DNA from: Candidatus Woesebacteria bacterium
GTDB taxonomy: Bacteria; Patescibacteriota; Microgenomatia; UBA8517
Direction of reading: 5' to 3'
DNA: 64,000 bases
Assembly (NCBI GenBank): GCA_016700095.1
Contig: CP065002.1
Coordinates: 780,175 to 844,174, forward strand
In this document: piece by piece, positions 56,323-58,632 of the stretch
How the letters are laid out: each line of letters opens with the position of its first letter
Position numbering within the stretch: the first letter of the stretch is position 1
The notes under the pieces: generated by a model
The model's database searches: none
Told to the model about the DNA's origin: nothing
What the model saw: the letters and a program-made list of their open reading frames with translations, nothing else
Translations under genes and position numbers: made by a program

Positions 56323-58632
56323 CTAAATTTGTGACAATTTATGTCTCATTAGGTTGTCAGCCTTAGTTAACTGATCGGGAGTATTTATACCACACCACTG
56401 AGATGAATCCTTAATTGCATATACCAAAACCTTACGTGATTGTTTTATGGCAAGTTCAATAAAATCAGTCAACAAATATTCCTGTTGCACATTGTTATTT
56501 TTTATTTTACCGAAATTTTCCATAAACCAAGCGCGATCAAAAAGATACACCCCATCATTTACTTCGCTAATCTTTTTTTCCTCGTCGGTTGCATCTTTCT
56601 CTTCAACGATTTTTACAAAGTTATCTTTTTCGTCTCTTACAATCCGGCCAAATCCGAAAGGATTATCTAAAACCAAACTAATTAAAGTAATTGTTGCCTT
56701 ACTGTCACTATGCATTTTTATCAATTTCCTGTATGTTTCTTTGGTGTAAAAAGCATTGTCATCGCCATACATTACCAAAACATTTCTGTTCTTTGACTCA
56801 CCCACTCCACAAAATGCCGCATGGCCGGTTCCCAATTGCCGGTCTTGCTCAACGTAACGAAGCGAATTACCAAAATATGTGTGTATTACATCTAGCCTAT
56901 AACCAACGACTGCAATAATATCCACTACTCCAATCCGCCGCAAGTTATCGATAGGATAGGTTAACATTGGTTTACCTGCTAACTTATGCATTACTTTGGG
57001 TGTTTGCGATTTTAGTCTACTGCCTTTTCCGGCAGCAAGAATTACAGCATCTAGTAGCAATTTGTTAGTCAATATATCTTTCACAAATTCCCTGTCGTTC
57101 CAGGGATGCTCCACATTATCATAAGCCATCGACATTTCATGACCTTTCCCGCATATCACGACAGTGTCACCTTTTTTAGCAAGTTTTTTTATCGCATAAT
57201 AAATCGCCTCACCTCTTTCGGGCATTGTCAAATATGCGTGTTTCTCAAGTTTATTAATGTCTTCGACAGATAAATCAGTTGCATTTACCGTATCACTTCC
57301 TACTCCTGACAACATATCCTTGAATATACTAAACACATCTTCTTTGCGCGGATCCTCTGCCGTAAACACTGCAATATCAGCAAGTCTTGTTGCAACTTCG
57401 GCCATCATTGGACGCTTTGTTAAGTCTCTTTGGCTTGCACATCCAAACACACATATCACTCGGCCTTGGGACTCACTCTTAAGTTGTCGTAAAACATTTT
57501 CCAGTGAGTTCGGAGTATGTGCGAAATCAACATATATTTTTAGGTGTAAATCATTGTTGATTTCTTCTCGCCTTCCTTCCAATTGAGGGAATGATGATAG
57601 TGCGGTGTTTATTACTTTATCGGAAATAGTATAGTGTTTTGCCACACTAATTGCCGCAAGAGCATTAGAAATATTGTAGCTACCTGCCATTGATAACTTG
57701 ACTTTAAATTTTGAAGCTTTAGTTTTGACTTCAAATGTAGGTATATTTTTTGTGTGAGTTATATTTGACGCATACACATCTGCTGATTTATCGATGATAG
57801 AGTACGAAATTATTTGAGATTTGTTTTCTCTTCTTTGGGATAAGAAATTATACGCACTGTCATCTTTATTGAGAACTATCGTGTTTCCCGCTTCAAAAAG
57901 CATCGCTTTCGCGTTCAAATAATTTTCAAAAGTTTTATGATAATCAAGATGTTCGTGAGTTATGTTTGTCAAAACACTTACATCAAAATCAACCCCAATA
58001 ACCCGACCTTGATCTAAACCATGTGAAGTTACTTCGATGACTGCATATGTGCAACCGTTTGCAACCATGCGAGAAAGAAGTTTTTGTAAATCAATTGAAT
58101 CGGGATTTGTAACATGTAGCCCGGTGTCAATTGCTTCATTACCGATTTTTGCCGAAATCGTACTAATCATACCCACATTCTCACCACTACTTTTTAGTAT
58201 TTCGTAAATCATATTTACTGTAGTTGTTTTCCCGTCGGTACCAGTCACGCCAATAACTTTCATTTTTTCGCTTGGATTGTCAAACCACTGCGAAGCCAAT
58301 AGACCAAGCGCTTCACGCGAATCGGCAACTTTCACATATGCAGTAAGTGAAGACCAGCTTTTGTCAGGTAGCTTTTCCCCGACAACACATGCCGCCCCCG
58401 AATCGATAGCTTTTTGTATATAATCATGTCCGTCGCAATTTAAACCTTTTATGGCAACAAACATATCACCTTTTTTCACTTTTCTACTGTCTTGAGTAAT
58501 TCCCGAAATAAGGACATCCTTTCCCATAAATTGATAATTCGGAAGGCACTTAAGTAGTGTCAGTAGTTTATTTTTCATGTCAAAGGAATTGTACTTCGGG
58601 CTCAAGGAGGACATTAAATTTATCATAAACAT
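56323..58632 (-). CDS. murE: Fusion protein: MurE-type Mur ligase (N-terminal about 500 aa) plus GlmU-N-terminal-like sugar-1-phosphate nucleotidyltransferase domain (C-terminal about 250 aa)
   Basis: P-loop [13 protein letters not shown] and the Mur ligase C-domain. The C-terminal half then begins [29 protein letters not shown], the GlmU/NTP-transferase signature. No LbH acetyltransferase repeats are present. The true start is probably an internal Met, because the ORF overlaps murB by 53 nt. Confidence 0.75.
   Translation of the reverse strand: [769 protein letters not shown]

What the first reader, a model, noticed from the sequence alone, without database searches (positions are those of the whole stretch)
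56323..58632. MurE fused to a GlmU-type uridylyltransferase domain
Seen in sequence: a single 769-aa ORF contains a complete Mur ligase (P-loop [13 protein letters not shown]). After a [10 protein letters not shown] linker it is followed by [29 protein letters not shown]..., the N-terminal pyrophosphorylase domain of GlmU. There are no hexapeptide acetyltransferase repeats. No separate glmU is present in the cluster. Fusing the enzyme that makes UDP-GlcNAc to a Mur ligase would couple precursor synthesis to the pathway. I am not aware of this architecture being characterised.
Basis: partly seen in the sequence, partly recalled or inferred. Interest (0 to 1): 0.6.

Follow-up and report, generated by a model that had tools for sequence, protein, structure and literature searches.

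The report
MurE fused to acetyltransferase-less GlmU
A cell-wall gene in this small Woesebacteria (Patescibacteria) genome really does encode one protein that joins the peptide-adding enzyme MurE to the UDP-GlcNAc-making half of GlmU. The fusion is conserved across many related uncultured bacteria and has not been described in the literature I could search. It joins two well-known enzymes rather than revealing a new kind of system.

Summary

- **The gene:** The minus-strand ORF 56323..58632 is uninterrupted. The real start is probably M19 at 58578, giving 751 aa.
- **MurE module:** It encodes a complete MurE, scoring 488 bits on NCBIfam NF001126 against a cut-off of 373.
- **GlmU module:** About five residues after MurE's last helix comes a domain matching only positions ~2-241 of GlmU models. 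All uridyltransferase active-site residues are present. There are no hexapeptide (LβH) acetyltransferase repeats.
- **Not an artefact:** The 120 best-matching clusters (42-49% identical, from many independent assemblies) all share the architecture. The junction spacer is 23 residues in 116 of 119 aligned sequences. The AlphaFold2 model is confident throughout (pLDDT 93.7, pTM 0.90).
- **Wider context:** The LβH-less glmU is a lineage of its own, mostly standalone proteins of about 250 aa embedded in mur operons. It has also fused to MurC, to both MurE and MurC (1216 aa), to a GlmM-like mutase and to a HAD-like domain.
- **Precedents:** Uridyltransferase-only GlmU is already known in Capnocytophaga canimorsus. 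Mur chimeras are known too, but the published catalogue lacks this pair.
- **Most likely function:** A bifunctional MurE / GlcNAc-1-P uridylyltransferase whose two steps are not consecutive.
- **Unresolved:** The source of GlcNAc-1-P, which could be an acetyltransferase encoded elsewhere or GlcNAc salvage.

It is a new variant of a known kind and of moderate interest.

The parts
56323..58632 (-). Full ORF as reported (769 aa from the first ATG, stop codon included)
56323..58578 (-). Most likely real CDS (751 aa, start at M19; the ATG lies 1 nt after the murB stop)
   Evidence: Homologues start at query residues 19-21. The identical NCBI protein P0001 is 751 aa. Sequence read directly.
57061..58560 (-). 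MurE module (ORF residues 25-524): Mur ligase N, central ATP-binding and C-terminal domains
   Evidence: NF001126 scores 487.6 bits (cut-off 373) and TIGR01085 485 bits. Pfam domains. The model superposes on MurE structures 4c13, 1e8c and 4bub with TMt 0.87-0.88.
58222..58251 (-). ATP-binding P-loop [10 protein letters not shown] (residues 128-137)
   Evidence: Read in the translation. T, G, T, G, K and T are invariant across 84 family members.
57346..57357 (-). EDPR motif (residues 426-429), at the position of the DNPR motif of meso-DAP-adding MurE
   Evidence: EDPR in 108 of 121 family members. The comparison with DNPR rests on my own knowledge of E. coli MurE.
57031..57099 (-). Junction: the 23 residues between the W of MurE's C-terminal HPW motif and the first G of GlmU's GxGxR loop. 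It contains MurE's last helix and about 5 connecting residues.
   Evidence: The spacer is 23 aa in 116 of 119 family members. In the AF2 model a helix at 495-504 is followed by a strand at 510-516, with block pLDDT 89-95.
56332..57051 (-). GlmU-type GlcNAc-1-P uridylyltransferase domain (residues 528-767), ending in the helix that in GlmU leads into the LβH domain
   Evidence: TIGR01173 positions 2-241 and NF010934 at 240 bits. PDB 1g95 at E = 9e-49. 1g97 at rmsd 1.6 Å over 244 columns. Residues G535, R539, K546, Q596, G601, T602, D624, G662, E677, N692 and N750 correspond to E. coli G14, R18, K25, Q76, G81, T82, D105, G140, E154, N169 and N227.
58580..59605 (-). murB, immediately upstream
   Evidence: NF000755 scores 358.6 bits (cut-off 277)
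54955..56319 (-). murD, immediately downstream (3-nt spacer)
   Evidence: TIGR01087 scores 382 bits (cut-off 212)
59613..62319 (-). murC (59613-61013) and murA (61018-62319) upstream. MurA is the first consumer of UDP-GlcNAc.
   Evidence: TIGR01082 scores 367.5 bits (cut-off 335); NF006873 scores 353.7 bits (cut-off 297)

Best explanation
The gene encodes a genuine two-enzyme polypeptide.

**MurE module (shown by homology, activity inferred).** The N-terminal ~505 residues form a standard three-domain MurE. It uses ATP to add the third, diamino-acid residue to UDP-MurNAc-L-Ala-D-Glu.

**GlmU-type module (shown by homology, activity inferred).** The C-terminal ~240 residues form the Rossmann-like uridylyltransferase domain of GlmU. 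It converts GlcNAc-1-phosphate plus UTP into UDP-GlcNAc plus pyrophosphate, using the conserved Arg/Lys of the GxGxR…PK loop and the Asp/Asn metal ligands. UDP-GlcNAc is the substrate of MurA, encoded two genes upstream, and of MurG, encoded in the same cluster.

**What is missing.** The LβH domain that in canonical GlmU acetylates GlcN-1-P and drives trimerisation is absent. GlcNAc-1-P must therefore come from elsewhere.

**Consequence of the fusion (inferred).** The two active sites catalyse non-consecutive steps. The fusion therefore cannot hand its product directly from one site to the other. More likely it fixes a 1:1 ratio and physically tethers UDP-GlcNAc synthesis to the cytoplasmic Mur enzyme assembly.

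**Origin (inferred).** The fusion arose from an operon order murE–glmU(N)–murC, by loss of the stop codon between neighbouring genes.
For: **Domain identity.**

**Active sites under selection in both halves.**
- The P-loop and other central- and C-domain Mur ligase residues are invariant across 84 family members.
- The E. coli GlmU residues G14, R18, K25, Q76, G81, T82, D105, G140, E154, N169 and N227 are 97-100% conserved in 122 fused domains. My E. coli numbering was verified against PDB 1fwy/1hv9.

**The fusion is real and old.**
- The 120 best-matching clusters, at 42-49% identity, all share the architecture.
- 61 of 61 scanned members have both modules and none has Hexapep.

**The junction is constrained.**
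- The spacer is 23 aa in 116 of 119 sequences.
- The AF2 model has pLDDT 93.7 and pTM 0.90 with no low-confidence linker.

**Operon context.** The gene sits within ftsI-murA-murC-murB-[fusion]-murD-murI…murF…mraY-ftsW-murG-ftsA-ftsZ, with spacers of 1-7 nt around it.

**Recurrent fusion of the same domain to pathway neighbours.**
- GlmU(N)–MurC (P0178, P0180) and MurE–GlmU(N)–MurC (P0039, 1216 aa).
- A GlmM-like mutase fused to GlmU(N) (P0194).
- The gene order murE / glmU(N)-murC / murB in L084.
- A murE-glmU(N) fusion followed by murC in L081.

**Established knowledge.**
- An isolated GlmU N-terminal fragment keeps uridyltransferase activity. GlmU Tr331 was used this way in PMC4358021.
- Natural Mur chimeras that join non-consecutive steps exist and are active: MurC-Ddl and MurG-MurC (PMC10214165).
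Against: - **No biochemistry.** Neither activity has been measured for any member of this family.
- **Sugar specificity is not proven.** Sequence alone cannot establish it. The Tyr103 position varies within the family (Asn in 81% of fused members, Tyr in this protein).
- **The GlcNAc-1-P source is unidentified.** The window has no acetyltransferase, GlmS, GlmM or sugar kinase, but it covers only about 5% of the 1.27-Mb contig.
- **A possible second UDP-GlcNAc pyrophosphorylase exists in a relative.** In L087 a standalone GlmU(N) coexists with an ST0452-type bifunctional nucleotidyltransferase/acetyltransferase and a CofD/GlmR-family gene. GlmU(N) need not be the only such enzyme in these lineages.
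- **The fixed inter-domain interface is inferred.** It rests on pTM alone. I could not inspect coordinates or PAE.
- **The fusion is not universal.** Five Microgenomates/Patescibacteria loci fetched from species-representative genomes (L006, L007, L008, L040, L045) have plain murE with no GlmU-like domain in the DNA held, 1.4-10 kb downstream.
Confidence: 0.8

Rival explanations
1. Neutral operon compaction. Both enzymes work exactly as they would separately. The fusion is a by-product of tiny intergenic spacers in a reduced genome and brings no stoichiometric, scaffolding or regulatory benefit.
For: - Spacers around the gene are 1-7 nt.
- The same lineage also shows a MurB–MurD fusion, GlmU(N)–MurC, and fusions to HAD-like and glyoxalase-type domains. 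This suggests promiscuous joining to whatever gene lies adjacent.
- The two reactions are not consecutive.
- Standalone GlmU(N) is commoner than the fused form among the nearest relatives (88 standalone among the 269 proteins collected).
Against: - The fusion has persisted down to about 42% identity, with an almost invariant 23-residue junction.
- The whole-chain AF2 model is confident (pTM 0.90). That would not be expected for beads on a flexible string.
- Fusions to Mur ligases on both sides recur.
Confidence: 0.3
2. The C-terminal domain is a GlmU-derived paralogue that activates a different sugar-1-phosphate, for example MurNAc-1-P as MurU does in cell-wall recycling, or GlcN-1-P, Glc-1-P or GalNAc-1-P. 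UDP-GlcNAc would then be made by another enzyme.
For: - In L087 a standalone member of this lineage sits beside an ST0452-type bifunctional enzyme and a CofD/GlmR-family gene, either of which could make UDP-GlcNAc.
- The Tyr103 position varies.
- Attachment to a Mur ligase would also make sense for an enzyme that produces UDP-MurNAc.
Against: - The MurU model scores 37 bits (cut-off 250) against about 240 bits for GlmU.
- Residues that contact GlcNAc and uridine in E. coli GlmU are 97-100% conserved.
- Tyr103 also varies among the canonical-length relatives, about half of which are LβH-bearing GlmUs, and the aligned S. pneumoniae GlmU has Ala at that position.
- murA and murB are present in the same operon, so UDP-GlcNAc is needed and UDP-MurNAc is made de novo.
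- The model fits the GlmU·UDP-GlcNAc complex at 1.6 Å.
Confidence: 0.1
3. The C-terminal domain is catalytically dead. It would serve as a UDP-sugar-binding regulatory or structural appendage of MurE.
For: Only the general precedent that S. aureus GlmU has an impaired uridyltransferase site (2026 preprint).
Against: The catalytic Arg, Lys, Asp and Asn, and the GxG loop, are 97-100% conserved in 122 fused domains. In particular Asn169, whose Ser variant marks the defective staphylococcal enzyme, is Asn in 99%.
Confidence: 0.03
4. Sequencing or assembly artefact: a missed stop or frameshift joining two separate genes.
For: None found.
Against: - The identical protein is on a 1.27-Mb NCBI contig.
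- The 120 best-matching clusters, from four data sources, share the architecture.
- Junction length is conserved.
- The frame is continuous in the window.
Confidence: 0.01

Closest known systems
Natural Mur chimeras (MurE-MurF of Bordetella pertussis, PDB 8f5d; MurC-Ddl of Chlamydia; MurB/C of Verrucomicrobium spinosum; MurG-MurC; MurD-FtsW; MraY-MurG), catalogued by Shirakawa et al. 2023, PMC10214165
   Same: - A Mur ligase is joined in one polypeptide to another enzyme of peptidoglycan synthesis encoded next to it in the dcw/mur cluster.
- Like MurG-MurC and MurC-Ddl, it joins non-consecutive steps.
- Like linker-less MurE-MurF, the partner follows MurE's C-terminal helix with essentially no linker.
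   Different: - The partner is the GlmU uridyltransferase domain. This enzyme acts upstream of the committed Mur pathway and is not in the published catalogue. That survey excluded unidentified species, and so excluded Patescibacteria MAGs.
- The best PDB match to both halves at once is absent. 8f5d aligns only through the MurE part.
Canonical bifunctional GlmU (E. coli 1hv9, S. pneumoniae 1g95/1g97)
   Same: The N-terminal pyrophosphorylase domain has the same fold (rmsd 1.6 Å, 38% identity), the same signature loop and the same catalytic residues.
   Different: - It lacks the whole LβH domain, and with it the GlcN-1-P acetyltransferase activity and the trimer-forming element.
- It is attached to MurE at its N-terminus.
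- It scores below the full-length GlmU cut-offs (240 vs 450 bits).
Monofunctional GlcNAc-1-P uridyltransferase GlmUCc (Ccan_15070) of Capnocytophaga canimorsus, and other truncated GlmU variants (PMC4358021; bioRxiv 10.64898/2026.06.23.733835)
   Same: A bacterial GlmU-type uridyltransferase without the acetyltransferase domain. In C. canimorsus it goes with GlcNAc auxotrophy and glycan foraging. That lifestyle is plausible for an episymbiotic Patescibacterium.
   Different: - Those enzymes are standalone, whereas this one is fused to MurE.
- I did not test orthology to Ccan_15070.
- Auxotrophy of this organism is not shown. A relative's mur operon (L087) carries glmS and an ST0452-type acetyltransferase-bearing enzyme.
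ST0452-type archaeal bifunctional sugar-1-P nucleotidylyltransferase/acetyltransferase (PDB 2ggo, 5z09)
   Same: It belongs to the same nucleotidyltransferase superfamily. A homologue sits two genes from a standalone GlmU(N) in L087, making it a candidate supplier of the missing acetyltransferase activity.
   Different: - It is only about 27% identical over about 100 residues to the fusion's C-domain.
- It retains its LβH domain.
- It was not found in the window, nor on any contig longer than 200 kb that carries a fusion, among the top 120 hits.

Membership tests
MurE (UDP-MurNAc-L-Ala-D-Glu : diamino-acid ligase) | Score at or above the curated cut-off of a MurE equivalog/subfamily model over the full length | tested here: met
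   NF001126 scores 487.6 bits (cut-off 373) over residues 25-524; TIGR01085 scores 485.1 (cut-off 257.3)
MurE (UDP-MurNAc-L-Ala-D-Glu : diamino-acid ligase) | Three-domain Mur ligase architecture with the ATP-binding P-loop GxxGKT | tested here: met
   Pfam Mur_ligase, Mur_ligase_M and Mur_ligase_C. [10 protein letters not shown] is invariant in the family. The fold matches 4c13, 1e8c and 4bub with TMt 0.87-0.88.
MurE (UDP-MurNAc-L-Ala-D-Glu : diamino-acid ligase) | DNPR motif of meso-DAP-adding enzymes (recalled from the E. coli MurE literature) | tested here: not met
   The motif is EDPR here and in 108 of 121 relatives. The Arg is kept and Asn is replaced by Asp. This bears on which amino acid is added, not on membership of MurE.
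MurE (UDP-MurNAc-L-Ala-D-Glu : diamino-acid ligase) | Ligase activity on UDP-MurNAc-dipeptide | not testable with these tools
   Needs an enzyme assay or complementation of murE(ts)
Bifunctional GlmU | N-terminal uridyltransferase domain with the L-x2-G-x-G-T-x-M-x4-P-K loop and catalytic residues R18, K25, Q76, D105, E154, N169, N227 | tested here: met
   The loop reads [15 protein letters not shown] (T→S and M→L). All listed residues are present and 97-100% conserved in 122 fused domains. Numbering verified.
Bifunctional GlmU | C-terminal left-handed β-helix (hexapeptide-repeat) GlcN-1-P acetyltransferase domain | tested here: not met
   The protein ends at GlmU profile position ~241. There is no Hexapep hit, and 0 of 61 family members have one.
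Bifunctional GlmU | Score at or above the curated full-length GlmU cut-off | tested here: not met
   NF010934 scores 240.7 (cut-off 450); TIGR01173 scores 219.8 (cut-off 366.85). Only half of the profile is matched.
Natural Mur chimeras | One polypeptide containing a Mur ligase plus another peptidoglycan-pathway enzyme, conserved across species | tested here: met
Natural Mur chimeras | Belongs to one of the catalogued types (MurE-MurF, MurC-Ddl, MurC-MurB, MurG-MurC, MurD-FtsW, MraY-MurG) | tested here: not met
   The partner is a GlmU N-domain. GlmU is not mentioned in PMC10214165.
MurU (MurNAc-α-1-P uridylyltransferase) | Score at or above the NF045761 cut-off | tested here: not met
   36.6 bits against a cut-off of 250
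Monofunctional GlmU-type uridyltransferase (GlmUCc-like) | GlmU-type uridyltransferase domain with no LβH domain in the same protein | tested here: met
   Standalone relatives of 234-260 aa dominate the nearest neighbours.
Monofunctional GlmU-type uridyltransferase (GlmUCc-like) | Organism lacks GlcN-1-P acetyltransferase and depends on exogenous GlcNAc | not testable with these tools
   Only 64 kb of a 1.27-Mb genome was visible. None was found in the window.

The most novel reading that the evidence does not exclude
In Woesebacteria-type Patescibacteria the UDP-GlcNAc pyrophosphorylase may be a built-in structural subunit of a cytoplasmic Mur enzyme assembly. Evidence would be the rigid MurE–GlmU(N), GlmU(N)–MurC and MurE–GlmU(N)–MurC chimeras, together with a membrane-anchored MurF. 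The bacterial LβH acetyltransferase would have been discarded because GlcNAc-1-P is supplied either by scavenged host GlcNAc or by an archaeal-type ST0452 enzyme. These natural two- and three-enzyme chimeras would then be ready-made, stable fragments of the long-hypothesised 'Mur complex'. They would also show that the complex extends upstream to precursor nucleotide-sugar synthesis.
Probability: 0.25. Interest if true: 0.6.

Novelty: new variant of a known kind. Interest (0 to 1): 0.42.

Why it matters
- **Extends the list of natural Mur chimeras.** The new partner acts upstream of the committed Mur steps. This adds comparative evidence that cytoplasmic peptidoglycan enzymes, including the one that makes UDP-GlcNAc, work as a physical assembly.
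- **Offers a structural target.** The family provides compact, confidently foldable two- and three-enzyme chimeras, including a 1216-aa MurE–GlmU(N)–MurC. These could be used for structural work on the elusive Mur complex.
- **Raises a concrete question about amino-sugar supply.** GlmU in a large Patescibacteria lineage has lost its acetyltransferase half. Do these ultra-small, probably host-dependent bacteria salvage amino sugars, or use a replacement enzyme?
- **Flags an annotation gap.** Public annotation names these proteins simply 'MurE'. Metabolic reconstructions that look for a GlmU entry could wrongly score UDP-GlcNAc synthesis as absent.

Tried and rejected
- **Genome-contig scan with the whole protein.** It is seeded on exact peptides and returned 80 ordinary murE loci, mostly Chloroflexota, Bacteroidota and Bacillota. 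None had a GlmU-like domain in the DNA held. Its one useful result is that five Microgenomates/Patescibacteria loci have unfused murE.
- **Foldseek against afdb50.** The library was not available, so I obtained no organism names from AFDB.
- **NJ tree of 266 GlmU-N domains.** The backbone is star-like, with internal branches of 0.001-0.02 against terminal branches of about 0.3. The query domain's weak grouping with four standalone proteins cannot be read as an independent fusion. Per-domain identities (MurE 50%, GlmU 43%) show a somewhat faster-evolving C-domain but no clear domain swap.
- **Search for the missing acetyltransferase.**
  - There is none in the window.
  - None lies next to standalone glmU(N) in L083 or L088, or next to the GlmM-like fusion in L086.
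  - An ST0452-type candidate was found in L087. Among its top 120 homologues none lies on the window's contig or on any contig over 200 kb that carries a fusion (one search compared). That list is truncated, so absence is not shown.
- **Literature searches.** No paper describes a Mur ligase–GlmU fusion. The hit in PMC12419801 was only in its reference list.
- **cluster-member name look-ups.** The documented range is therefore limited to Woesebacteria, 'Patescibacteria group' and unnamed MAGs.
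Full report
**1. The observation**

The minus strand of the window carries one uninterrupted ORF from 58632 to 56323, 769 codons long. Pfam places Mur_ligase at residues 42-115, Mur_ligase_M at 129-331, Mur_ligase_C at 354-497 and NTP_transferase at 529-761.

NCBIfam gives a full-length MurE match. NF001126 scores 487.6 bits against a cut-off of 373 over residues 25-524. A dozen GlmU models then match residues ~528-767, but only through profile positions ~2-241 of ~450, at 160-240 bits. 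The next-best nucleotidyltransferase families are far behind: archaeal GlmU 120 bits, RmlA 75 and MurU 37. There are no hexapeptide repeats.

One correction is needed. Homologues start at residues 19-21. An ATG at 58578 lies one base after the murB stop codon. The identical NCBI protein is 751 aa. The real CDS is therefore most likely 56323..58578.

**2. The fusion is not an artefact**

A search of 5.8 billion proteins returned 120 best-matching clusters, all with the same fused architecture. They are 42-49% identical to the query and come from NCBI, JGI, ENA and Logan assemblies. The identical protein lies on a 1,274,238-bp contig named Candidatus Woesebacteria.

In a per-member Pfam scan, 61 of 61 relatives have Mur_ligase_M, Mur_ligase_C and NTP_transferase. 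None has Hexapep.

The number of residues between the W of MurE's C-terminal HPW motif and the first G of GlmU's GxGxR loop is 23 in 116 of 119 aligned sequences. A frameshift or missed stop in this one assembly cannot produce that pattern.

**3. What the two halves are**

The MurE half keeps the P-loop and other central- and C-domain Mur ligase residues, invariant across 84 sequences.

For the C-terminal half I first confirmed that my recalled E. coli GlmU 1-264 is identical to PDB 1fwy/1hv9. I then mapped residues in an alignment of 266 domains. E. coli G14, R18, K25, Q76, G81, T82, D105, G140, E154, N169 and N227 correspond to G535, R539, K546, Q596, G601, T602, D624, G662, E677, N692 and N750. 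These are 97-100% conserved in the 122 fused domains. Only the Tyr103 position varies. It is Tyr here and Asn in 81% of the fused family. It also varies among the canonical-length relatives, about half of which are LβH-bearing GlmUs, and the aligned S. pneumoniae GlmU has Ala at that position.

By sequence the domain matches S. pneumoniae GlmU residues 5-244 at E = 9e-49.

An AlphaFold2 model built from an 84-sequence alignment has mean pLDDT 93.7 and pTM 0.90. No segment falls below pLDDT 50. MurE's last helix (model residues 495-504) is followed after five residues by the first β-strand of the GlmU-like domain (510-516).

Foldseek against the PDB aligns the N-terminal ~510 residues with MurE structures: S. 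aureus 4c13 at TMt 0.88, E. coli 1e8c at 0.87 and T. maritima 4bub at 0.88. It aligns the C-terminal domain with the S. pneumoniae GlmU·UDP-GlcNAc·Mg complex 1g97 at 1.6 Å over 244 columns. No solved chain covers both modules.

That the high pTM implies a fixed inter-domain arrangement is my inference. I could not inspect PAE or coordinates.

**4. Genomic context**

All genes from 63964 down to 42307 lie on the minus strand. In order they are:
- ftsI-type PBP, murA, murC, murB, the fusion, murD and murI
- an α/β-hydrolase
- a murF-like gene
- a DegT-type aminotransferase and a FemAB-like gene
- mraY, ftsW and murG
- a 231-aa ORF with no family hit
- ftsA and ftsZ

These assignments rest. murA, murC, murB, murD, murI and mraY are at or above their NCBIfam cut-offs. 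Spacers around the fusion are 1 nt (murB) and 3 nt (murD).

Pfam scans of the window's ORFs of at least 150 aa, other than two that overlap larger scanned genes (10302-10784 and 43656-44198), found no LβH acetyltransferase, GlmS or GlmM. A six-frame tblastn with LβH, GlmM-like and HAD-like probes agreed. The only GlmU-like hit is the fusion itself. The window is only about 5% of the genome, so this says nothing about the rest.

**5. The wider family changes the picture**

An exhaustive phmmer search of 1.84 billion representatives with the C-terminal domain alone found 1492 proteins at E ≤ 1e-30. Among the best 150, most are standalone proteins of 234-260 aa. These are a GlmU N-domain and nothing else. 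Taken together with the 120 fused proteins (269 proteins in all), the collected set splits as follows:
- 123 MurE-fused
- 88 standalone
- 25 with a short tail, mostly partial or ordinary LβH
- 22 of canonical length
- 11 others

Of the 22 canonical-length proteins, 11 have LβH tails and are Bacillota-type GlmUs. Ten carry instead a HAD-like domain with a DxDxT motif, related to PDB 2p11.

Other architectures of the same domain:
- GlmU(N)–MurC: P0178 and P0180 (murC model 295 and 339 bits)
- MurE–GlmU(N)–MurC: P0039, 1216 aa
- GlmM-like mutase–GlmU(N): P0194, 950 aa
- HAD–GlmU(N)
- glyoxalase–GlmU(N)

Genomic contexts are consistent with this:
- A second Woesebacteria genome has mraZ-rsmH-…-PBP-murA-[murE-glmU(N)]-murC-[murB-murD fusion]-hydrolase-murF-DegT-FemAB-mraY.
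- L084 has PBP-murE-[glmU(N)-murC]-murB.
- The GlmU(N)–HAD protein sits between a Mur ligase gene and murB.
- A standalone glmU(N) lies 4 kb upstream of mraZ in L083.

The LβH-less glmU is therefore a resident of the mur operon in these bacteria and has fused repeatedly with whichever gene lies next to it. An NJ tree of the domain is too star-like to count fusion events.

**6. How it most likely works**

*Shown by homology.* There are two complete catalytic modules with intact active sites. Both are under purifying selection across a family that has diverged to about 42% identity.

*Inferred.* The protein is a bifunctional MurE / GlcNAc-1-P uridylyltransferase. The C-domain makes UDP-GlcNAc for MurA and MurG. 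The N-terminal part adds residue 3 of the stem peptide.

MurA, MurB, MurC and MurD act between these two steps, so direct substrate hand-over is not the rationale. The same is true of the known MurG-MurC and MurC-Ddl chimeras. For those, co-expression at fixed stoichiometry, stabilisation and assembly of a Mur complex have been proposed (PMC10214165).

Three things argue for a structurally integrated protein rather than two beads on a string: the invariant junction, the confident whole-chain model, and the recurrence of fusions with both MurE and MurC. A purely neutral fusion in a compact operon still cannot be excluded.

Loss of LβH removes the trimerisation element. An isolated GlmU N-terminal fragment is known to retain uridyltransferase activity (GlmU Tr331, as used in PMC4358021).

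**7. Where GlcNAc-1-P comes from is unresolved**

Two precedents point in different directions.

*Salvage.* C. canimorsus has a uridyltransferase-only GlmU, lacks GlmM and the acetyltransferase, and is a natural GlcNAc auxotroph (PMC4358021). A 2026 preprint lists N-only, C-only and split GlmU variants in several phyla. The GlmM-like–GlmU(N) fusion (P0194) would join consecutive steps only in the order GlcNAc-6-P → GlcNAc-1-P → UDP-GlcNAc. This is a hint, no more, towards that route.

*A trans-acting acetyltransferase.* In L087 a standalone glmU(N), 45% identical to the query domain, is embedded in murE–[427-aa protein]–cofD–glmU(N)–yfiH–murC–murB–murA–glmS. The 427-aa protein is an ST0452-type archaeal-style bifunctional nucleotidyltransferase/acetyltransferase with its LβH domain intact (PDB 5z09/2ggo, E ≈ 1e-49). 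Homologues of it are common in Gottesmanbacteria, Chisholmbacteria and other Microgenomates.

Among the top 120 of those homologues, none lies on the window's contig. None lies on any of the eleven contigs over 200 kb that carry a fusion (longest_contig columns). The list is truncated, so this is only suggestive of complementary distribution.

L087 also raises the minority possibility that GlmU(N) is not the only UDP-GlcNAc pyrophosphorylase in these lineages, or not the main one.

**8. Comparison with what is known, and novelty**

It works like a Mur chimera and like a monofunctional GlmU.

It is a member of MurE. Curated cut-offs are met, though the motif at the DNPR position is EDPR.

It is not a member of bifunctional GlmU. 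The defining LβH domain and the full-length cut-off were tested and not met.

It is not one of the six catalogued Mur chimera types.

Six literature searches found no description of a Mur ligase–GlmU fusion. Public annotation calls these proteins simply MurE.

I rate it a new variant of a known kind. The architecture is real, conserved and undescribed, but it is built from two well-understood enzymes of one pathway, and it can be seen in existing databases.

**9. Verdict**

The 'coupling' cannot be channelling. The acetyltransferase-less GlmU is a broader and partly known phenomenon.
- Interest is moderate (0.42). The finding is useful for the Mur-complex question, for amino-sugar metabolism in Patescibacteria and for annotation. 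It would not astonish a specialist.

Noticed in passing
window 51611-53200 (-); also L081 17651-19450: The murF-like gene matches the MurF model only from profile position 63 onward, at 209 bits (below the 288.6 cut-off). It has a hydrophobic N-terminus of about 165 residues, apparently multi-pass, in place of the usual N-terminal domain. The Woesebacteria relative has a 599-aa version with the same Pfam content. This may be a membrane-anchored MurF.
   Followed up: partly
window 49364-51614 (-); L081 19447-21712: A DegT/PseC-type sugar aminotransferase and a FemAB/FemX-like transferase sit between murF and mraY inside the dcw cluster. The pair is conserved in a second Woesebacteria genome. 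This suggests a modified precursor sugar and/or an interpeptide branch.
   Followed up: partly
window 57346-57357 (-): The MurE motif at the position of DNPR (meso-DAP-adding enzymes) is EDPR. It is EDPR in 108 of 121 relatives and EDSR in 10. The amino acid added at stem position 3 may not be meso-DAP, despite the automatic annotation.
   Followed up: partly
window 8905-9943 and 15338-16377: Two 300-nt blocks are repeated at 100% identity, 6433-6434 nt apart. The repeat covers identical DUF6624 ORFs at 8966-9451 and 15399-15884. This indicates a recent segmental duplication of at least ~1.4 kb, or an assembly repeat.
   Followed up: partly
window 6735-6955, 7808-7923, 11098-11318, 12424-12644 (and 6972-7122, 7950-8100, 11433-11536, 12673-12823): Families of 100-220-nt direct repeats (61-89% identical) recur between short genes in the 6-13 kb region.
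   Followed up: no
L081 13729-16269: An 846-aa MurB–MurD fusion lies in the Woesebacteria relative's mur operon. This pairing is also absent from the published list of Mur chimeras.
   Followed up: no
L087 6563-17334: This mur operon carries, between murE and murC, an ST0452-type archaeal-style bifunctional nucleotidyltransferase/acetyltransferase, a CofD/GlmR-family gene, a standalone LβH-less glmU and a YfiH-like gene. glmS follows after murA.
   Followed up: partly
P0130 group (10 representatives); L085 3749-5212: A GlmU N-domain is fused to a C-terminal HAD-like domain of about 230 aa with a DxDxT motif (nearest PDB 2p11, 'hypothetical protein'). It is encoded between a Mur ligase gene and murB. 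The function of the HAD part, phosphatase or mutase, is unknown.
   Followed up: partly
L088 2251-7025: A standalone LβH-less GlmU (P0126) lies immediately upstream of phage small and large terminase and portal genes. It may sit at a prophage border or be phage-carried.
   Followed up: no
P0121: One of the closest standalone relatives of the domain is labelled by NCBI as coming from a 'Candidatus Nanoarchaeia archaeon' MAG. This could reflect transfer between episymbiotic bacteria and archaea, or a binning error.
   Followed up: no
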